Positions 33,496 to 50,647 of a stretch of 57,672 bases of DNA are shown here, piece after piece (within the stretch, counting starts at the first letter, position 1; the number at the start of each line of letters is the position of its first letter). A program made the position numbers and the translations under genes. Under the pieces are notes generated by a model. The model saw nothing but the letters and a program-made list of their open reading frames with translations. It was not told where the DNA came from and made no database searches. The DNA is from a virus (taxonomy: Duplodnaviria > Caudoviricetes), in IMG/VR virus record IMGVR_UViG_3300044296_000098, positions 1-57,672 of that record, one strand, 5' to 3'.

Positions 33496-33553
33496 TTGAC
33501 ACCAATGTAGGCGCCGCGTAACAAGGCGCTGTCACAACGGAGACGCTATTATG
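33496..33553 (+). promoter_or_regulatory. Early promoter plus conserved leader/RBS cassette
   Basis: TTGACA-N17-TAACAA, then TGTCACAACGGAGACGCTATTATG. Confidence 0.7.
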
Positions 33554-34099
33554 ATCACTGACGAGCAGTTTGCCGCGCACACGGCGTGGTTTCGCGGGGA
33601 GCCAGGAGGCGAGCGGTTGGTCCTGACCGGCGCCGACTTGACCGGCGCCGACTTGGCCCGCGCCGATCTGCGCCGCGCCGACCTGACCGGCGCCGACTTG
33701 GCCCGCGCCGACTTGACCTGCGCCGACTTGGCCCGCGCCGTGCTGGCCCGCGCCGCGTTGCGCTGCGCCGACTTGACTGGCGCCGACTTGACCGGCGCCG
33801 ACCTGCGTCACGCCGACCTGACCGGCGCCGTGCTGGATCGCGCCGACCTGCGTCACGCCGACCTGACCGGCGCCGTGCTGGATCGCGCCGACTTGACCTG
33901 CGCCAACTTGGCCGGCGCCGCCGGCATAGTCGATGCCGGGGCAGACTGGCGCGGGTATAGGTTCCTCGGCGTCCGTCACTCGGATGGCTGGCGTATAGCC
34001 GCCGGCTGCCGTTGGTTCACGCTGCCAGAGGCTCGTCAGCACTGGCAGGACAACCTGGCCGCCCTCGCCCGCCTCGGCGTGATCGAGGCGCGGTCATGA
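33551..34099 (+). CDS. Pentapeptide-repeat protein 1
   Basis: About 20 A(D/V)Lxx repeats; C-terminal D.RGYRFLG...IAAGCRWFT..EARQHW domain. Confidence 0.9.
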   Translation: MITDEQFAAHTAWFRGEPGGERLVLTGADLTGADLARADLRRADLTGADLARADLTCADLARAVLARAALRCADLTGADLTGADLRHADLTGAVLDRADLRHADLTGAVLDRADLTCANLAGAAGIVDAGADWRGYRFLGVRHSDGWRIAAGCRWFTLPEARQHWQDNLAALARLGVIEARS

Positions 34100-34136: not shown

Positions 34137-34700
34137 ATGATCACACAAGAGCAGCTCGCCGCGCATGCGGCGTGGTTTCGCGGGGAGCCAGGAGGCGTAC
34201 GGTTGGTCCTGACCGACGCCGACTTGACCGACGCCGACTTGACCGACGCCGACTTGACCGACGCCGACCTGCGCCGCGCCGACTTGGCCCGCGCCGACCT
34301 GCGCGGCGCCGGCCTGCGCCGCGCCGTGTTGCGCCACGCCGACTTGACCGACGCCGTGTTGCGCGGCGCCGACCTGCGCGGCGCCGTGTTGCGCCGCGCC
34401 GTGTTGCGCCGCGCCGTACTGCGCGGCGCCGACCTGCGCCACGCCGACTTGACCGACGCCGACTTGACCGACGCCGACCTGCGCTACGCCGACCTGCGCC
34501 GCGCCGACTTGACCGACGCCGTCGGCATGATCGATGCCGGGACGGATCCGCGCGGGTATAGGTTCCTCGGCATCCGCCACTCGGATGGCTGGCGTATAGC
34601 CGCCGGTTGCCGCTGGTTCACGGCAGCCGAGGCTCGTCAGCACTGGCAGGACAATCCGGACGCCCTCACCCGCGTAGGTGTGATCGAGGCGCAGCCATGA
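34137..34700 (+). CDS. Pentapeptide-repeat protein 2 (tandem paralogue)
   Basis: Same N- and C-terminal domains and same upstream cassette as 33551-34099. Confidence 0.9.
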   Translation: MITQEQLAAHAAWFRGEPGGVRLVLTDADLTDADLTDADLTDADLRRADLARADLRGAGLRRAVLRHADLTDAVLRGADLRGAVLRRAVLRRAVLRGADLRHADLTDADLTDADLRYADLRRADLTDAVGMIDAGTDPRGYRFLGIRHSDGWRIAAGCRWFTAAEARQHWQDNPDALTRVGVIEAQP

Positions 34701-44645: not shown

Positions 44646-44933
44646 ATGACCGTCAACTTCAAGGAACTGGTCGAAGAGGCCATGCAAGAGCGGTACGACC
44701 CGCGCGGACGGCGGTGCTGGCCGTGGTCCCATGAGTGGTCTATGTGGGGCTTGGACGTTAGCGCCCGGAGGCAATCACGGCGATGCGTCGGTTGCGGCAA
44801 ACTCCAAGTTAAAACGCTCTCTTCGGTTTGCGCGCACTCGTGGCAGGTGTTTGAACAGCCTAGTCCGGTCGGGGTTGTGAGTATTATCCAACACTGCCCG
44901 TGGTGCGGGGACTTAAGGCGCCGGAGCGTATGA
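44646..44933 (+). CDS. Cys-rich hypothetical protein
   Basis: H.W...CVGCG and CAHSW...CPWCG; ATGA overlap with the methyltransferase. Confidence 0.6.
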   Translation: MTVNFKELVEEAMQERYDPRGRRCWPWSHEWSMWGLDVSARRQSRRCVGCGKLQVKTLSSVCAHSWQVFEQPSPVGVVSIIQHCPWCGDLRRRSV

Positions 44934-45931
44934 CCCGAGCCTATTACAATGAGGTAGATCCGTTTGCTGCTCAATGGTTACGAAACCTCATTGTATGCGG
45001 CTACATCGCGCCCGGAGACGTAGACGAAAGAGATATTCGGGACGTCTATCCCAGCGACCTTAAAGGATACGTTCAATGCCATTTTTTCGCAGGCATAGGG
45101 ATTTGGTCTCGGGCGTTTCGTTCCGCAGGATGGGCGGATGAACGACCTGTCTGGAGCGGTTCGTGCCCTTGCCAGCCTTTCAGCGCGGCAGGCCGCAGAG
45201 AAGGGATTGCTGATGAGCGGCACTTATGGCCGCACTTCCACCACCTCATCCGAGAGTGCAAACCTGGGGTCGTTTTTGGCGAACAGGTTGCGAGCAAGGA
45301 CGGCCTCGCTTGGCTCGACCTTGTACAATCTGACTTGGAAGGAGAGGGTTACGCCGTCGGGGCGCTTGATCTTTGCGCTGCGGGCGTCGGCGCCCCGCAC
45401 ATCCGCCAGCGATTGTATTGGGCGGCCGACGCCTACAACCCGCGACCACAAGGACGGGGCGTCGGAGGGGACGGTTCCGACGAATGGGTTACTCGGGCGC
45501 CAAGCGTGGTTGGCGGGGTGGCCGACGCCTACGGGCAAGGAGACAGCGGGGGGAGAATACAAAGACCCGGAGAAAGCGATGCTTCGGGCGCTTGGGCCGC
45601 ATGCGAACGATCTGCGGGATTTCGTGCAACTGGCCGGGTGGTGCTCGCCGATGGCCGAGGACGGCAGGAGGGGCGGACTGCCGGCGCGCCCACAGGACAC
45701 GGGCGTGCCGCTGTCGCAGCAGGTGGCGTTGATCGGCCCGGCCCGACGAACGGCGGATGGGCGGATGCTGACTGGCTCTTCTGCCGGGACAACAAATGGC
45801 GGCCAGTTAAATCCGGAACATTCCCGTTGGTTGATGGGTATCCCTCAAGAGTGGGCGCTTTGCGCGCCTATGGGAATGCGGTCGTCGCGCCGCTCGCCGA
45901 AGAGTTCATCCGCGCTTACCTCGGGACCTAA
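44930..45931 (+). CDS. C5-cytosine DNA methyltransferase, alpha-type chain
   Basis: FFAGIG (motif I), GSCPCQPFS (IV), GEQV (VI), PHIRQRLY (VIII), YGNAVV (X). Confidence 0.9.
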   Translation: MTRAYYNEVDPFAAQWLRNLIVCGYIAPGDVDERDIRDVYPSDLKGYVQCHFFAGIGIWSRAFRSAGWADERPVWSGSCPCQPFSAAGRREGIADERHLWPHFHHLIRECKPGVVFGEQVASKDGLAWLDLVQSDLEGEGYAVGALDLCAAGVGAPHIRQRLYWAADAYNPRPQGRGVGGDGSDEWVTRAPSVVGGVADAYGQGDSGGRIQRPGESDASGAWAACERSAGFRATGRVVLADGRGRQEGRTAGAPTGHGRAAVAAGGVDRPGPTNGGWADADWLFCRDNKWRPVKSGTFPLVDGYPSRVGALRAYGNAVVAPLAEEFIRAYLGT

Positions 45932-45935
45932 ATGA
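45138..45935 (+). CDS. Overprinted alternate-frame ORF, putative methyltransferase beta chain carrying motif IX
   Basis: Repeated (W/R)PTPT..D.K units and C-terminal GQLNPEHSRWLMGIPQEW; its stop overlaps the polymerase ATG (ATGA). Confidence 0.7.
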   Translation: MNDLSGAVRALASLSARQAAEKGLLMSGTYGRTSTTSSESANLGSFLANRLRARTASLGSTLYNLTWKERVTPSGRLIFALRASAPRTSASDCIGRPTPTTRDHKDGASEGTVPTNGLLGRQAWLAGWPTPTGKETAGGEYKDPEKAMLRALGPHANDLRDFVQLAGWCSPMAEDGRRGGLPARPQDTGVPLSQQVALIGPARRTADGRMLTGSSAGTTNGGQLNPEHSRWLMGIPQEWALCAPMGMRSSRRSPKSSSALTSGPK

Positions 45936-48217
45936 CCCCGCCCCCTCCGCCTGCGCTCTCCGACCTCCCTGCGGGATACCAGCTTCGTGCCGGCCGGGGC
46001 TTCAGCACTATCCTCCCGGACATGGACTTCGAGACCTATAGCGAGGCGGGCCTCGTGTGGGACGAAGGCAGGCAGAGGTGGCGGGCGCCCGACCGCGCTC
46101 CCAGCACGAAGCGCAGCATCAGCCTAGTGGGCGCGGCGCGGTATGCGGAGCACCCGTCCACTCAAGTGCTATGCCTAGCTTATGATCTCAAGGACGGCCG
46201 GGGCCGCCGGCAATGGGTTCCAGGCATGGAGCCGCCCGTCGACCTGTTCGCCTACCTTGCCACAGGAGGCCCGATCGAGGCTTGGAACGTCAGCTTTGAG
46301 CGGCACATCTGGGAGAAAGTCTGTGTTCCGCGCATGGGGTGGCCCCAGATCCACCGGAGCCAATGGCGGTGCGCCATGGCCAAAGCTCGGGCCTTCGCGT
46401 TGCCCGGCGCCCTGGCTAACGCAGCCTCCGTGGTCCATGCATCGGCGCAGAAAGACCCCGCCGGCACTCGGCTGCTGAACAAGTTTAGCGTGCCGCGGAA
46501 CCCGACCCTCAAGGACAAACGACTGCGGCTGGATCCGGCCACGGATCCGGAAGGGCCGGCGCTGTATGCCTACAACGTCCAAGACATCGTGGCCGAGGCG
46601 GAGGTGTCCTCGCTCGTCCCTGACTTGCAGCCGGACGAGCAGGAATGGTGGTTCGTCGACCAGGAGATTAACGCCCGCGGCGTCCAGATCGATATGGAGA
46701 GCGTGAACGCCGCGATCTCCATCGTGGAAGAGACGCTCAAGCGGTATAACGGGGAGCTGGCAGTGTTGACCAATGGGGCGGTTTCTTCAGCCAGCGAAGT
46801 GCAGAAACTTACCGGTTGGCTCGGCGCGTATGGCCTGCATCTGTCCTCCCTCGACGAAGAGGCGGTAGGCGCGGCTCTAGCGCGTAAGGACTTGCACCCC
46901 ACAGTGCGGCGGGCACTAGAGATACGGGCCCTCGTGGGAAGCGCCAGCGTCAAGAAGCTGTTCGCTATGGAGCATATGGTCTGCCGCGACGGTCGCCTGC
47001 GTGACCTATACGTCTACCACGGGGCTAGAACCGGCCGGGCGACAGGCGGTTCCGTGCAGCCTACCAACCTTCCTAACCACGGCCCGGCAGTGCGGAAGTG
47101 CGTGTCCTGCGGCAAGCACTTCGGGGAGGCCGCAGGACGGTGCCCGTGGTGCGCGGCAGCGCCGACACCTGCCACACAAGAGTGGTCCGCATCTGCGATG
47201 GAAGACGCCATAGCGGTCCTCCGGAGCGGGTCGCTCGATCTGACCGAGATGGCCTTCGGCCCCGCCTTACCGGCTATCAGCGGGTGCCTCCGAGGCATGT
47301 TCGTGGCCGCACCCGGCCACGACCTCATAGCGTCGGACTACAGCGCGATCGAGGCCGTGGTGCTGGCGGAACTGGCGGGCGAGAAGTGGCGTCAAGAGGT
47401 GTTCCGGACGCACGGTAAGATATACGAGATGAGCGCCAGCAAGATCAGCGGCGTTCCGTTCGAGGAAATGATGGAGCACCGTAAACGCACGGGGCAGCAT
47501 CATCCCCTCCGGAAAACGATCGGTAAAGTAGCGGAACTGGCCAGCGGGTACCAGGGCTGGATAGGCGCGTGGAAAGCATTTGGCGCCGACGAGTTCATGT
47601 CCGAAGAGGAGATGAAGACCTCCATTCTCAAATGGCGGGCGGAGTCTCCAGCGATCGTAGAGTTCTGGGGCGGTCAAACCCGGCGCGTGGCGTTCGGCGG
47701 CGTCGTTCGGGAATACTACGGGGTCGAAGGCGCAGCCGTCATGGCGGTGCTGTCGCCGGGTAAAGAGTTCTCGTTTCGTGGCGTAACTTACGTTTGCCAG
47801 GGAGACATTCTCTACTGCCGGTTGTTGTCGGGCCGGTATTTGACCTACCACAGCCCTCGGCTGGAGCCGAGCCAAAAGAGGGTTGGAGAATGGTCGCTGA
47901 GCTACGCCGGGTGGAATACGAACCCGAAGAACGGCCCGATTGGTTGGATACGTATGCAAACGTGGGGAGGCCGTTTAGTCGAAAATATTATTCAGGCGAC
48001 CGCGCGAGATATTCAACGAGAGGCGCTTGTCAAACAGGAACGGGCCGGTTATAAGATCGTCCTACACGTTTACGACGAGAACGTAGCCGAAGTTCCTGAT
48101 GGCTGGGGTTCCGTCGAAGAGTTTGAAAAGATCATGTCTACTATGCCCGCATGGGCGGCCGATTGGCCTGTTCGTGCGGCGGGTGGATGGCGCGGTAAAC
48201 GCTATCGAAAGGACTAA
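45932..48217 (+). CDS. DNA polymerase family A with 3'-5' exonuclease
   Basis: DFETYS, AWNVSFER, YNVQDI, GARTGR, ASDYSAIE (motif A), GKVAELASGYQG (B), ENIIQATARD, HVYDE (C). Confidence 0.93.
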   Translation: MTPPPPPALSDLPAGYQLRAGRGFSTILPDMDFETYSEAGLVWDEGRQRWRAPDRAPSTKRSISLVGAARYAEHPSTQVLCLAYDLKDGRGRRQWVPGMEPPVDLFAYLATGGPIEAWNVSFERHIWEKVCVPRMGWPQIHRSQWRCAMAKARAFALPGALANAASVVHASAQKDPAGTRLLNKFSVPRNPTLKDKRLRLDPATDPEGPALYAYNVQDIVAEAEVSSLVPDLQPDEQEWWFVDQEINARGVQIDMESVNAAISIVEETLKRYNGELAVLTNGAVSSASEVQKLTGWLGAYGLHLSSLDEEAVGAALARKDLHPTVRRALEIRALVGSASVKKLFAMEHMVCRDGRLRDLYVYHGARTGRATGGSVQPTNLPNHGPAVRKCVSCGKHFGEAAGRCPWCAAAPTPATQEWSASAMEDAIAVLRSGSLDLTEMAFGPALPAISGCLRGMFVAAPGHDLIASDYSAIEAVVLAELAGEKWRQEVFRTHGKIYEMSASKISGVPFEEMMEHRKRTGQHHPLRKTIGKVAELASGYQGWIGAWKAFGADEFMSEEEMKTSILKWRAESPAIVEFWGGQTRRVAFGGVVREYYGVEGAAVMAVLSPGKEFSFRGVTYVCQGDILYCRLLSGRYLTYHSPRLEPSQKRVGEWSLSYAGWNTNPKNGPIGWIRMQTWGGRLVENIIQATARDIQREALVKQERAGYKIVLHVYDENVAEVPDGWGSVEEFEKIMSTMPAWAADWPVRAAGGWRGKRYRKD

Positions 48218-48221
48218 CGCA

Positions 48222-48806
48222 ATGCAAACGTCCGTTGCTACCGTTACGATCAGAGGGATCACTTCGCTTTCGCAGTCGCGGAGGCATGCGGACCCGAGGA
48301 AGGAAGGTGAGAACCCGGAGGATTACGACAACCGAACTTGGCGTTCCAAACTGAGCGTCGAGAACGGTTCGGTCGTGTTGCCCGCGCATGGGGTTCACCA
48401 GGCGATTGCCGCCGCGGCAAAGTATTCTAAGCGGCAGATCCCCGGCCAAGGGAAGTCCACTTGGACCGCCAAGTTCATGGCCGGTATCGCCATCCTGGAG
48501 GATCCTCGCCTCAACATTGACCCGGAGACCGTTTCCAGCGTCGTCATCAGCGCGAATTCGGACGGCGTGCGTGGGTCCGGCCGGCGTGTCCCTCGCCGCT
48601 ACCCGATGATCCCGGAGTGGCAAACCACGTTCGAGGTTTATATTCTCGACCCCATCATCACGGAGAGCGTGTTCACCGAGATGCTGACCATTTCCGGCAT
48701 GTTCATCGGCCTTGGTCGGTTCCGGCCGGAAAAGGGCGGCACCAACGGCCGGTTCCAGCTCGTGGAACTCCAGTGGCAAGATAACCGTCAGCTTCTAGCT
48801 GCATAG
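48222..48806 (+). CDS. Solitary Cas7/RAMP-like protein (194 aa), putative RNA-binding effector of the adjacent array
   Basis: N-terminal strand VTIRGITSL; VLPAHGVHQAI resembles RAMP IPGSSLKGAL; basic hairpin VRGSGRRVPRRYP; C-terminal Gly-rich loop IGLGRFRPEKGGTNGRF. Confidence 0.65.
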   Translation: MQTSVATVTIRGITSLSQSRRHADPRKEGENPEDYDNRTWRSKLSVENGSVVLPAHGVHQAIAAAAKYSKRQIPGQGKSTWTAKFMAGIAILEDPRLNIDPETVSSVVISANSDGVRGSGRRVPRRYPMIPEWQTTFEVYILDPIITESVFTEMLTISGMFIGLGRFRPEKGGTNGRFQLVELQWQDNRQLLAA

Positions 48807-48812
48807 AGGCTT

Positions 48813-48849
48813 GAGGTGCCTGTTCCTTCCCCCGTGGTATGGGCACCTC
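48813..48849 (+). other. Leader hairpin between the RAMP-like gene and the array
   Basis: GAGGTGCC...GGCACCTC inverted repeat. Confidence 0.6.
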
Positions 48850-48851
48850 GC

Positions 48852-49418
48852 CCTTCCCATGCCGTCAGCCTCAGTGGCTGGCGGGATGCGAAGGCATCCA
48901 TCTCCGCCCCGCTGCGCTCCGCAACGCTGCGCCTCGCCTCGCAACGCAACGCAACGGCCTTCCCATGCCGTCAGCCTCAGCGGCTGGCGGGATGCGAAGG
49001 CATCCATCTCCGCGCCGCCTCGCGCCGCCTCGCTACGCTGCGCTCCGCAACGCAACGCAACGCAACGCAACGGCCTTCCCATGCCGTCAGCCTCAGCGGC
49101 TGGCGGGATGCGAAGGCATCCATCGCCGCCACGCCTCGCATCGCACCGCATCGCACCGCAACGCACCGCAACGCAACGCAACGGCCTTCCCATGCCGTCA
49201 GCCTCAGTGGCTGGCGGGATGCGAAGGCATCCATCGACGCTTCGCCTCGCCGCGCTCCGCAACGCAACGCAACGACCTTCCCATGCCGTCAGCCTACGCG
49301 GCTGGCGGGATGCGAAGGCATCTATCGCCGCTCCGCTTCGCAACGCAGCGCTCCGCGCCGCGACGCCACGCAGCGCAACGCCTCGCCACGCCGCGCCCCG
49401 CAACGCCCCGTAACGTAA
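48852..49418 (+). repeat. Array of five 51-nt hairpin repeats, each followed by a tract of CGC-NN pentamers (putative guide-RNA array)
   Basis: Repeat CCTTCCCATGCCGTCAGCC-TCAGY-GGCTGGCGGGATGCGAAGGCATCCATC at 48852, 48958, 49074, 49185 and 49276; tracts of 10, 12, 11, 7 and 16 CGCNN units. Confidence 0.95.
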
Positions 49419-49430
49419 AGGAACCTAACC

Positions 49431-49913
49431 GTGGCTCTGACGTCTGCTGATATCCGTGTGCTTACCGATGCCATGCTCAGCACTCCGGTCGGGGAAGTAA
49501 TCACCTTCTTCGAGCTGTCGAAGGCTCTTGGGGCTAACGTCAAAGCCCGGCAGTACCTTATCCACGGCGCGATTAAGCTCGCCAGTAAGGAAGCCGGCGC
49601 GATCTTCACCAGCGTCCGTTCGGTCGGCTACAAGCGGCTCCCCGCCGAAGCCGCAGCGGCTGTGGGGTCGCACGCTCGAAACCGCGTCCGGTCGACCGCA
49701 AGGAAAGCCTCAGGCATCATCACACGGGCCGTCGAACGCGCTAACGACATGTCTGATGAAGCTCGACGCAAAGCCATGACTGAGGTCTCCGCCCTCCAGC
49801 TGCTGAACACTCTTGCCGCTGATAGGACGGTTAAGGCCGTTCAACCGACCGATAAGCCGCAACCGGTAGCCATGACCCTGCGGTCAATGGCGGCGTCATT
49901 GGGGATTACGTGA
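49431..49913 (+). CDS. Putative winged-helix DNA-binding protein, candidate accessory of the RAMP/array locus
   Basis: GTG start with AAGGA RBS right after the array; ITFFELSKALG and FTSVRSVGYKRL wing-like motif. Confidence 0.7.
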   Translation: MALTSADIRVLTDAMLSTPVGEVITFFELSKALGANVKARQYLIHGAIKLASKEAGAIFTSVRSVGYKRLPAEAAAAVGSHARNRVRSTARKASGIITRAVERANDMSDEARRKAMTEVSALQLLNTLAADRTVKAVQPTDKPQPVAMTLRSMAASLGIT

Positions 49914-50167
49914 TGGTTTACGGTCCTGAACACGATCGACCTTCCAGAGGCATGGGGTCTTACGGAACCGAGAAGTCCGTTCCAGACATGCCAAAATGCG
50001 GTAATTGCCGATGGCTTATTGACTACGGCAATGACCTAAAAGGGGTTTTGGGGACGTGCAGGGTTCCTTTACCACCTTTTCGCGTTTCTGGAACGGAAAT
50101 GTACCAAGCTCCTGTCAAGCATCACTACTGGTGTGTTCTGTGGGAGAAAAACAATGTCTGCCCGTAA
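49910..50167 (+). CDS. Small Cys-rich hypothetical protein
   Basis: CGNCRW...GTC...WC; GTGA overlap with the upstream stop. Confidence 0.55.
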   Translation: MMVYGPEHDRPSRGMGSYGTEKSVPDMPKCGNCRWLIDYGNDLKGVLGTCRVPLPPFRVSGTEMYQAPVKHHYWCVLWEKNNVCP

Positions 50168-50333
50168 ATGTGAGACCTGTAGGCATTGGAGCCCTTCCAA
50201 TAATCCCGGTATTGGCTATTGCGATTGGACCGTCGAAGCAGACGTACCGGAATGGCTAGTAACTTCTTCGGCTTCTATGCGGGGGTTCGAGGGGTCTACT
50301 TGCCGGGTTTGGTCTCCTGGAAACGACCGCTAA
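50154..50333 (+). CDS. Small Cys-rich hypothetical protein
   Basis: GGAG RBS; CETCRHW...GYC...CRVW. Confidence 0.6.
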   Translation: MSARKCETCRHWSPSNNPGIGYCDWTVEADVPEWLVTSSASMRGFEGSTCRVWSPGNDR

Positions 50334-50419
50334 TTCCCTTTCGCTTTGGGGGTGGCCGCGGTTTGCGGGGCAGCAGGCATCGACTGCATCCTCCCCCAAT
50401 TCCTGACAGGAGAAACACG

Positions 50420-50647
50420 ATGGCTCACGTTGACAGCGCCTCCGACGATCGCACTGCGAACAACGCCGTGCGGCACCAATACCGCGTCCTATCCGATGCG
50501 GAGAAGCAGCAGATGGTTGACTTGAAAGACCTTGGCGCGGCGTTCATCCAGAAGTGCAAGGACATCGGCGGCAGTCGGGAATTGTCGATCGCCATCACCA
50601 AGGCCGAGGAAGCCGTGATGTGGGCCGTCAAGCATGTGACAGCCTAG
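50420..50647 (+). CDS. Acb2/Tad1-like helical hairpin protein (putative immune-signal sponge)
   Basis: QYRVLSDAEKQQMVDLK...SRELSIAITKAEEAVMWAVKHVT; AGGAG RBS. Confidence 0.7.
   Translation: MAHVDSASDDRTANNAVRHQYRVLSDAEKQQMVDLKDLGAAFIQKCKDIGGSRELSIAITKAEEAVMWAVKHVTA

What the first reader, a model, noticed from the sequence alone, without database searches (positions are those of the whole stretch)
48222..49913. Candidate phage RNA-guided system: lone Cas7/RAMP-like gene, hairpin/pentamer array and winged-helix gene
Seen: directly after the DNA polymerase, a 194-aa ORF is followed within 50 nt by five structured 51-nt repeats. Each repeat precedes a different, strictly 5-nt-periodic tract, and a 160-aa gene follows with its RBS abutting the array. 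No cas1, cas2, cas3, cas5, cas6, cas8 or cas10 is recognisable. Established: Cas7/RAMP proteins polymerise along guide RNA with a fixed nucleotide step and carry a C-terminal Gly-rich loop like IGLGRFRPEKGGTNGRF. Inference: each repeat plus tract is one guide, coated by one subunit per pentamer, that recognises a host or competing-phage nucleic acid, probably blocking it rather than cutting it because no nuclease domain is evident. From memory this resembles recently described phage 'VIPR'-type loci with alternating GGY/NN motifs. That recollection needs checking, and the CGC scaffold here would be a distinct variant.
Basis: partly seen in the sequence, partly recalled or inferred. Interest (0 to 1): 0.97.

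Follow-up and report, generated by a model that had tools for sequence, protein, structure and literature searches.

The report
Phage VIPR locus with CGC-NN guides
This freshwater phage carries a copy of the VIPR RNA-guided DNA-silencing system first described in 2026, here with guide repeats built on C-G-C instead of G-G-Y, so it is a real but already known kind of system.

Summary
A 194-aa gene (48222-48806) is followed by five near-identical 51-nt repeats. Each repeat precedes a strictly 5-nt-periodic CGC-NN tract of 8 to about 18 units, and a 160-aa gene abuts the last tract.

VIPR is in print in four 2026 bioRxiv preprints, and this locus fits it.
- The protein model (pLDDT 96) matches Cas7/Csm3 over its whole length (Z 13.0).
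- A profile of its family hits the characterised Vipr of coliphage SUSP1 (hhalign 98.2%, E 3e-14).
- 80 of 87 related loci carry pentamer tracts within 1 kb of the gene, always on its coding strand.
- 58 of 87 loci carry a homologue of the 160-aa gene, which has a predicted winged-helix N-terminal domain.

The scaffold is C-N-C (CGC, CAC or CTC) rather than GGY. The letter at scaffold position 2 tracks one G-loop residue: Arg with G, Gln with A. Only 2 to 4 of these switches are independent.

No natural target was found, and strand and processing are inferred, not measured. Non-canonical VIPR scaffolds are already published. This scan has noted VIPR loci before on other DNA: 683 notes in at least 463 genomes. 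Verdict: a new member of a known kind, of moderate interest.

The parts
48222..48806 (+). vipr: 194-aa Cas7-like RAMP protein (RRM core, thumb hairpin about residues 105-130, G-loop 163-177)
   Evidence: AF2 pLDDT 96.1. Foldseek PDB top hits are type VII Cas7 and Csm3/Cmr4, E 1.8e-7. VIA Z 13.0 over 165 of 194 residues. Family profile against SUSP1 Vipr: E 6.5e-14 and hhalign 98.2%. phrog_4652 E 8e-9, no Pfam.
48813..48849 (+). extra stem-loop between the vipr stop and the first repeat; function unknown
   Evidence: Fold of 48807-48902. No T-run follows it, so it does not look like an intrinsic terminator.
48852..49326 (+). five 51-nt repeats (48852, 48958, 49074, 49185, 49276): a 43-nt interrupted hairpin plus 8 unpaired nt, interleaved with tracts 1-4
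   Evidence: The + strand folds at -30.2 and the - strand at -25.0 kcal/mol, because one U-G pair becomes C-A. The only variation among copies is in the loop and one 3' base. No Rfam family. Covariance model R1 finds no copy in 87 related loci.
48903..48957 (+). tract 1: 11 CGC-NN units, the last three NN = AA
49009..49073 (+). tract 2: 13 units, the last five NN = AA
49125..49184 (+). tract 3: 12 units, the last three NN = AA
49236..49275 (+). tract 4: 8 units, the last three NN = AA
49327..49416 (+). tract 5: 16 strict plus 2 degenerate units; it runs into the ribosome-binding site of the next gene with no hairpin after it
49431..49913 (+). vap-like accessory gene, 160 aa: winged-helix-like N-terminal domain (1-72), long helical hairpin (72-133), C-terminal helix
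   Evidence: Homologue found in 58 of 87 loci, downstream of vipr on the same strand in all but L043, where it lies upstream. AF2 pLDDT 88.6. VIA Z 8.6 to a winged-helix domain over residues 1-72. Foldseek only weak, best E 0.04. No BLASTP similarity to SUSP1 vap1. No Pfam, PHROG or PADLOC family.

Best explanation
This is a VIPR (Viral Interference Programmable Repeat) system carried by a roughly 58-kb freshwater phage.

Shown here:
- The 194-aa protein is a Vipr-family RAMP.
- The array consists of pentamers with three fixed letters (C-G-C) and two hypervariable letters.
- The protein-array-accessory module is conserved as a unit across many phages.

Inferred from the published SUSP1 work:
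- The + strand is transcribed with vipr and vap, and the transcript is cut into vrRNAs.
- One Vipr protomer binds each pentamer and hides the CGC letters.
- The NN pairs are presented to pair with double-stranded DNA that reads NN-x-NN-x (one base skipped).
- Binding silences transcription of a rival mobile element, and the winged-helix-like Vap assists.

The CGC scaffold goes with changes at the residues that contact G1 and G2 in SUSP1. SUSP1 Asp177 corresponds to Arg166 here, and thumb Arg138 corresponds to Tyr127 here.
For: Fold:
- pLDDT 96.1.
- All 50 rows listed by VIA are CRISPR effector entries (mostly Cas7, Csm3 or Cmr chains by title), with Z 10.6 to 13.0.
- Foldseek E 1.8e-7.

Homology:
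- A 70-sequence profile of the family finds one place in phage SUSP1 (KT454805.2, 28492-28974, E 6.5e-14).
- That place is the 195-aa gene ALH47069.1, flanked by GGY-NN tracts on its coding strand, as the paper describes.
- hhalign gives 98.2% probability, E 3e-14, over 170 columns.

Conserved array:
- 80 of 87 related loci have a pentamer tract within 1 kb of vipr: 67 upstream, 73 downstream.
- Tracts cover 13.3% of bases near the gene and 0.24% farther away.
- On the vipr strand the tract families read CGCnn in 189, CACnn in 50, CnCnn in 19 and CTCnn in 10. Distant homologues read GGCnn.

Plus strand:
- The arrays are co-oriented with vipr in those loci and in SUSP1.
- vap's ribosome-binding site abuts tract 5.
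- The hairpin is 5.2 kcal/mol more stable on the + strand.
- AA units pile up at the 3' end of tracts: 32-37% of the last three units against 8% of inner units, over 285 tracts.

Guide-like content:
- The NN letters of 187 unique clade guides have 44.5% and 54.9% GC, against 61.9% for the loci.
- They fit codon positions 1-2 best. The log-likelihood ratio is +171.7, against -35 for positions 2-3 and -496 for positions 3-1. 138 of 187 guides fit this model best. That is what skipping the wobble base predicts.

Other points:
- No self-target at 80% or better under the 1-nt skip, apart from the uninformative 5-unit guide of tract 4.
- Unit counts of 8-18 compare with the published 9-16.
- The module moves as a unit: only 1 of 87 loci shares the upstream polymerase.
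Against: - No natural target was found for any of the window's guides.
- No skip length stood out when 187 clade guides were scanned against 0.55 Mb of related loci.
- A relative's guide gave 2 hits against 13 for the reversed control in 401 genomes.
- The canonical GGY scaffold is absent.
- The hairpin precedes the first tract and is missing after the last, unlike the published tract-then-tail layout.
- Vap shows no sequence similarity to SUSP1 vap1, and its fold matches are weak.
- The codon-position fit could partly reflect low GC in the NN letters alone.
- Across all 118 inter-tract gaps, folding favoured the - strand slightly (64 against 47, p 0.01). This is probably because C-rich filler becomes G-rich on the other strand.
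Confidence: 0.85

Rival explanations
1. The machinery is the same, but the guides are aimed at host genes (defence or regulatory) or at the phage's own timing rather than at rival phages or satellites.
For: No rival-element target was found in IMG/VR or in the metagenome collection. An Acb2/Tad1-type anti-defence gene lies about 300 nt downstream in the same + strand run. Earlier notes of this scan on other VIPR loci proposed defence-gene targets; those notes are unchecked or only partly upheld.
Against: No self-target under the 1-nt skip. The host is unknown, so host genes could not be searched. Published natural targets are mostly satellites and prophages.
Confidence: 0.15
2. The complex binds RNA rather than DNA, like the type III and type VII Cas7 filaments that its fold most resembles.
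For: The best structural matches are RNA-targeting effectors: type VII Cas7 and Csm3. The NN letters fit the antisense of codon positions 1-2 in 86 guides and the sense in 52.
Against: SUSP1 VIPR, to which the family is homologous, binds dsDNA in vitro, in vivo and in cryo-EM structures. Guides fit both orientations, as expected for DNA.
Confidence: 0.07
3. The tracts act as DNA: arrays of binding sites (iterons or a centromere) for the winged-helix protein, with no RNA guide.
For: A winged-helix-like gene is attached to the array. Short direct repeats are typical of such sites.
Against: Binding sites would keep their letters, yet the NN pairs differ in every unit and between close relatives. 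Tracts also occur in 67 of 87 loci upstream of vipr, away from vap. The link is to a RAMP protein homologous to an RNA-guided one. Strand polarity is kept.
Confidence: 0.03

Closest known systems
Type II VIPR of Escherichia phage SUSP1 (Vipr ALH47069.1 / YP_009199429.1, vap1, four vrRNAs; bioRxiv 10.64898/2026.04.26.720920, .720927 and 10.64898/2026.10.15.759431)
   Same: A lone Cas7-like protein of about 195 aa that is homologous at profile level. Pentamer tracts with 3 fixed and 2 variable letters on the vipr strand. A small accessory gene. A phage host. A comparable number of units per tract.
   Different: Only 18% identity over the 170 columns that hhalign aligned. The scaffold is CGC, not GGY. 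Asp177, Trp178 and thumb Arg138 of SUSP1 correspond to Arg166, Phe167 and Tyr127 here, and the His17 segment is absent. The array lies between vipr and vap, not after vap. The separator is a 43-nt hairpin, where the papers describe a pseudoknot tail. Vap is unrelated in sequence.
Non-canonical VIPR arrays (YNNNG, NNNGG and NNNNG repeats in 10.64898/2026.04.26.720920; GAC/NN, CAC/NN, WGT/NN and TGH/NN clusters in 10.64898/2026.10.21.760802)
   Same: Pentamer arrays with other fixed letters next to Vipr-like folds. CGC-NN written in the paper's register is C-N-N-C-G, which fits YNNNG. CAC/NN and GAC/NN relatives were also seen here.
   Different: CGC/NN is not named in any text I could read. The figures and tables that list the motifs and loci were not visible, so I cannot say whether this clade is among them.
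Class 1 CRISPR-Cas backbone (Cas7: Csm3, Cmr4, type VII Cas7)
   Same: RRM core, G-loop and thumb. A filament with one subunit per fixed step of guide RNA.
   Different: No CRISPR repeat-spacer array with contiguous spacers. No Cas1. The step is 5 nt with three hidden letters, not 6 nt with one flipped base. The locus has two genes.
TIGR-Tas tandem interspaced guide RNA systems
   Same: Short-period tandem guide arrays found in phages (named).
   Different: The period is 18 nt, and the effector is a Nop-domain protein, not a RAMP (the effector is recalled; the period is).

Membership tests
VIPR | Vipr protein with a RAMP fold: RRM core, glycine-rich loop and thumb | tested here: met
   Model pLDDT 96.1. 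Cas7/Csm3 matches at Z 10.6-13.0 over nearly the whole length. Foldseek E 1.8e-7. G163 and G176 are invariant, and G165, R168 and G173 are nearly so, in 70 sequences.
VIPR | Sequence relationship to a characterised Vipr | tested here: met
   Family profile against SUSP1: E 6.5e-14. hhalign 98.2%, E 3e-14. Plain tblastn of the single protein did not reach SUSP1.
VIPR | Tandem pentanucleotide repeats with fixed letters alternating with hypervariable NN, next to vipr | tested here: met
   Five tracts of 8-18 units. Conserved next to homologues in 80 of 87 loci.
VIPR | Canonical GGY fixed letters | tested here: not met
   The fixed letters are CGC. The papers allow 'a related consensus', so this separates the locus from the canonical type, not from the family.
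VIPR | Invariable structured 3' tail after each tract | tested here: inconclusive
   A conserved 43-nt hairpin follows tracts 1-4. One hairpin precedes tract 1 and none follows tract 5. Separators differ widely among relatives.
VIPR | Accessory vap gene with a predicted DNA-interacting fold | tested here: inconclusive
   A conserved neighbour in 58 of 87 loci. Winged-helix-like N-terminus at Z 8.6, but Foldseek best E is 0.04. Not similar to SUSP1 vap1.
VIPR | Targets read by the 1-nt skip rule, with no self-target | tested here: inconclusive
   No self-target at 80% or better except for the 5-unit guide of tract 4, which is too short to be informative. No convincing target elsewhere. NN composition fits codon positions 1-2.
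VIPR | vrRNAs expressed and bound by Vipr | not testable with these tools
   No RNA run was listed for this DNA.
CRISPR-Cas (class 1) | CRISPR array of repeats and contiguous spacers, plus adaptation genes | tested here: not met
   The 'spacers' are pentamer-periodic tracts. No Cas1 in a record rated 99% complete. Other cas genes were not searched one by one.

The most novel reading that the evidence does not exclude
One G-loop residue of Vipr sets the middle letter of the hidden scaffold: Arg reads G and Gln reads A. Vipr/vrRNA pairs with different scaffolds would then be orthogonal. Scaffold switching would be a way for phages to keep rivals' solo vrRNAs from hijacking their Vipr protein.
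Probability: 0.25. Interest if true: 0.6.

Novelty: new member of a known kind. Interest (0 to 1): 0.35.

Why it matters
VIPR is a months-old class of RNA-guided DNA binders with an unusual gapped code. This locus adds a well-defined example from a very large, mostly freshwater and alphaproteobacterial-associated clade: 954 homologous proteins (representatives of 90%-identity clusters). The clade's guides use C-N-C instead of G-G-Y.

The clade offers a natural experiment on how the protein recognises the hidden letters. Arg goes with G and Gln with A at one G-loop position. That could be tested by swapping one residue and one letter, and it might yield orthogonal programmable repressors.

The locus does not change what is known about the class. 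The biological target of this phage's guides remains unknown.

Tried and rejected
Target hunting
- Self-scan of the window at skips 0-3. At skip 1 there was no hit at 80% or better for tracts 1, 2, 3 and 5. The short 5-unit guide of tract 4 gave 36 hits at skip 1 (36 to 60 across the four skips), which is noise for so short a pattern.
- The 87 loci plus three others (L088-L090) gave only chance-level scores.
- Exact-pattern scans of IMG/VR for tract 5 found nothing: units 1-11, 2-11 and 8-17.
- Tract 3's nine variable units gave one IMG/VR hit. It lies in an AT-rich tail-fibre-like gene, out of wobble register and without extension.
- The metagenome collection gave 0 hits for tract 5 units 4-14.
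- Tract 3 gave 15 metagenome hits. Most of them lie in short ORFs in that frame (a few in ORFs of 117 to 337 aa). None extends, and none has a second guide nearby. I read them as chance.
- 187 clade guides against 0.55 Mb of loci showed no preferred skip.
- A guide of the Ancylobacter prophage (L085) gave 0 hits in five genomes. In 401 genomes of its order it gave 2 hits against 13 for the reversed control.
- Collection scans take exact patterns only, so targets with a few mismatches would be missed.

Expression
- No RNA holder was listed, and read laying was not used.

RNA family and structure
- No Rfam match. The best was 21 bits against a cut-off of 70.
- Covariance model R1, built from the five copies, found no hairpin homologue elsewhere, so no covariation test was possible.
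- A MAFFT alignment with the L021 separator was not structurally consistent and was dropped.
- A strand test by folding all 118 inter-tract gaps was confounded by C-rich filler.

Signals
- The promoter and terminator scan was at chance level.

Coding reading
- ORFs of about 200 aa cross the array on both strands. I rejected them because copies differ by multiples of 5 nt.

Vap
- A PDB profile search gave nothing below E 0.14.
- The sequence search gave only 4 hits.

Not done
- Complex prediction, the protein-atlas search and the paper supplements were not called.
- The supplements are stated closed. Tables S2 and S3 and data S4 of the first paper, and Fig. S10 of 10.64898/2026.10.21.760802, may list this clade or the CGC motif.

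What I saw of each paper
- 10.64898/2026.04.26.720920: outline and abstract, all of Results, Methods sections 18, 20, 26 and 27, and passages with the legends of figures S17-S22.
- 10.64898/2026.04.26.720927: outline and abstract, and sections 5 and 6. One term search found nothing.
- 10.64898/2026.10.15.759431: outline, abstract and passages.
- 10.64898/2026.10.21.760802: passages and section 33.
- The statement that 'CGC' is not named rests on term searches in .720927 and .759431 and on the parts of the other two papers that I read, not on a term search of those two. Searches found no further VIPR paper.
Full report
**What is there.**
The window is a whole virus record of 57,672 bases from a freshwater metagenome, rated 99% complete. 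On the + strand, genes follow one another with almost no gaps:
- a C5 cytosine methylase (44900-45931, PF00145);
- a family A DNA polymerase (45932-48217, PF00476);
- a 194-aa ORF (48222-48806);
- a 610-nt non-coding stretch;
- a 160-aa ORF (49431-49913);
- an 85-aa Cys-rich ORF that overlaps its stop.

The non-coding stretch holds a stem-loop (48813-49849 region, precisely 48813-48849) and then five 51-nt repeats with 98% column identity. Each repeat is followed by NN-CGC pentamers: 11, 13, 12, 8 and 16+2 units.

Repeat spacing is 106, 116, 111 and 91 nt. Copies therefore differ by multiples of five. This excludes a coding reading of the long ORFs that cross the array. Runs of six or more CGCNN units occur nowhere else in the window and never on the - strand.

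**The protein.**
Pfam and PADLOC give nothing, and PHROGs gives a family of unknown function. The family is large:
- 954 proteins (representatives of 90%-identity clusters) match in the 5.8-billion set;
- 1,146 clusters at 50% identity match at E up to 0.001.

With a 70-sequence alignment the AF2 model reaches pLDDT 96.1. Foldseek against the PDB returns type VII Cas7, Csm3 and Cmr subunits (E 1.8e-7, probability 1.00). VIA-align gives Z 13.0 over 165 of 194 residues, and all 50 listed rows are CRISPR effector entries, mostly Cas7, Csm3 or Cmr chains by title. The order of elements is that of a RAMP, with the glycine-rich loop between the last helix and last strand. G163 and G176 are invariant across the family.

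**Link to the published system.**
As published:
- Vipr is a phage-encoded RAMP.
- vrRNAs are 9-16 YNNGG repeats followed by a structured 3' tail.
- One protomer binds each repeat and hides GGY.
- The NN pairs read dsDNA with one base skipped.
- Natural targets are satellites and prophages.
- Seven types exist with different accessories.

I fetched phage SUSP1 (KT454805.2; accession recalled, confirmed). The profile of this window's family hits a single place there (E 6.5e-14). That place is a 195-aa gene with one GGY-NN tract upstream, a 146-aa gene after it and three tracts downstream, all on its coding strand. This is exactly the layout the paper gives. hhalign gives 98.2% probability (E 3e-14) over 170 columns. 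The window's protein is therefore a Vipr homologue by sequence as well as by fold.

**Conservation of the module.**
87 related loci were collected from IMG/VR and from bacterial genome assemblies.
- 80 have a pentamer tract within 1 kb of the gene: 67 upstream, 73 downstream.
- Tracts fill 13.3% of those flanks against 0.24% farther out.
- A homologue of the 160-aa gene is found in 58 of 87 loci on the same strand, downstream of vipr except in L043, where it lies upstream.
- The flanking polymerase is shared by only one locus.

The protein-array-accessory unit therefore travels as a cassette.

**The scaffold.**
On the vipr strand the fixed letters are CGC (189 tract families), CAC (50), CTC (10) or C-N-C (19). 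Distant homologues carry canonical GGC. The third letter stays a pyrimidine, as in GGY.

In the alignment with SUSP1, the residues that the cryo-EM paper names as contacts of G1 and G2 are changed. Asp177, Trp178 and thumb Arg138 of SUSP1 correspond to Arg166, Phe167 and Tyr127 here. The segment with His17 is missing.

Across 74 distinct proteins the residue at the Asp177 position tracks the scaffold:
- Arg in 48 of 48 CGC loci;
- Gln in 13 of 13 CAC loci;
- Asp in SUSP1 and in 2 of 3 GGC loci.

Nine further loci gave:
- Gln with CAC (1);
- Arg with CGC (4);
- Arg with GGC (2);
- Val with GAC (1);
- Ser with no clear array (1).

Arg thus goes with G, and Gln with A, at scaffold position 2. The exceptions are two CTC loci with Arg.

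On the tree the CGC/CAC switch needs 4 changes, of which 2 are forced by well-supported branches. Every independent pair goes the same way, but 2-4 pairs cannot reach significance. This is a lead, not a result.

**Strand and processing.**
The + strand is favoured by several observations:
- co-orientation with vipr in the relatives and in SUSP1;
- the lack of room for a promoter before vap;
- a U-G pair that makes the hairpin 5.2 kcal/mol more stable on the + strand;
- a clear polarity of the tracts, with AA units making up 32-37% of the last three units against 8% of inner ones.

The ends of the mature RNAs are unknown. In this window a hairpin precedes every tract and none follows the last. 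In L010 a two-hairpin element sits only between two tracts. In L003 and L005 the separators are short and T-rich. The hairpin may be a 3' tail, a 5' handle or simply a processing site. It has no Rfam family and no detectable homologue in the other loci.

**Guides and targets.**
The NN letters are far less GC-rich than their genomes. They fit the dinucleotide usage of codon positions 1-2 much better than positions 2-3 or 3-1. That is what a wobble-skipping, 3-nt-periodic target predicts, though low GC alone may contribute.

There is no self-target under the 1-nt skip for the four informative guides. Every attempt to find a natural target failed or gave chance-level hits. What this phage silences is unknown.

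**The accessory.**
The model (pLDDT 88.6) has three parts: a helix-strand-helix-helix-hairpin N-terminal domain (1-72), a long helical hairpin (72-133) and a C-terminal helix. The N-terminal domain aligns with winged-helix domains at Z 8.6. Foldseek matches to MarR- and OmpR-type DNA-binding domains are weak, with best E 0.04. It has no sequence similarity to SUSP1 vap1. 'Winged-helix-like DNA binder' is plausible and matches the kind of Vap the paper describes for some types, but it is not shown.

**Verdict.**
The locus is a genuine VIPR system of a large C-N-C-scaffold clade. The class, its mechanism, the existence of related consensus motifs and non-canonical scaffolds such as CAC/NN are all in print. 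This scan has flagged VIPR loci many times on other DNA: 683 notes in at least 463 genomes.

I could not see the figures or tables that would say whether CGC/NN or this clade is listed. I therefore file it as a new member of a known kind. The one new lead is the Arg/Gln-to-G/A correspondence.

Noticed in passing
window 33551-34099 and 34137-34700 (+): Two tandem pentapeptide-repeat protein genes (PF00805, E 1.8e-30 and 5.1e-42) lie in the early region. Their 15-nt coding period triggered my 5-nt periodicity detector. They are not vrRNA tracts.
   Followed up: partly
window 50219-50647 (+): A 142-aa protein whose C-terminal part matches the Acb2/Tad1 hairpin domain (PF24729, E 4.9e-17, above the curated cut-off). 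It is a likely anti-CBASS or anti-Thoeris nucleotide sponge, about 300 nt downstream of the VIPR module.
   Followed up: partly
window 49910-50167 (+): An 85-aa Cys-rich ORF whose start overlaps the vap stop. It has no Pfam or PHROG family and is not found next to vap in the 87 related loci.
   Followed up: partly
window 48813-48849: A strong stem-loop directly after the vipr stop and before the first repeat. No T-run follows it, and its role is unknown.
   Followed up: no
L032 1974-4561; L072 1764-2584: Some relatives have very large arrays. L032 has 14 tracts, seven on each side of vipr. L072 has near-continuous tracts of 230-300 nt. The longest run in the set has 79 units.
   Followed up: no
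L110 1379-2788; L059, L115, L116: L110 pairs a GAC-NN scaffold with Val at the G-loop position. L059, L115 and L116 pair a GGC-NN scaffold with Arg. The residue therefore seems to follow scaffold letter 2, not letter 1.
   Followed up: partly
L085 (Ancylobacter amanitiformis DSM 15561) and L087 (Rhizobium ruizarguesonis Vaf-46): Two cultured alphaproteobacteria carry prophage copies of this Vipr clade (48% and 52% identity). They could serve as experimental hosts.
   Followed up: no
window 44900-45935: The C5 methylase ORF matches PF00145 only over residues 86-174 (E 3.3e-12). The split-enzyme idea was not examined.
   Followed up: no
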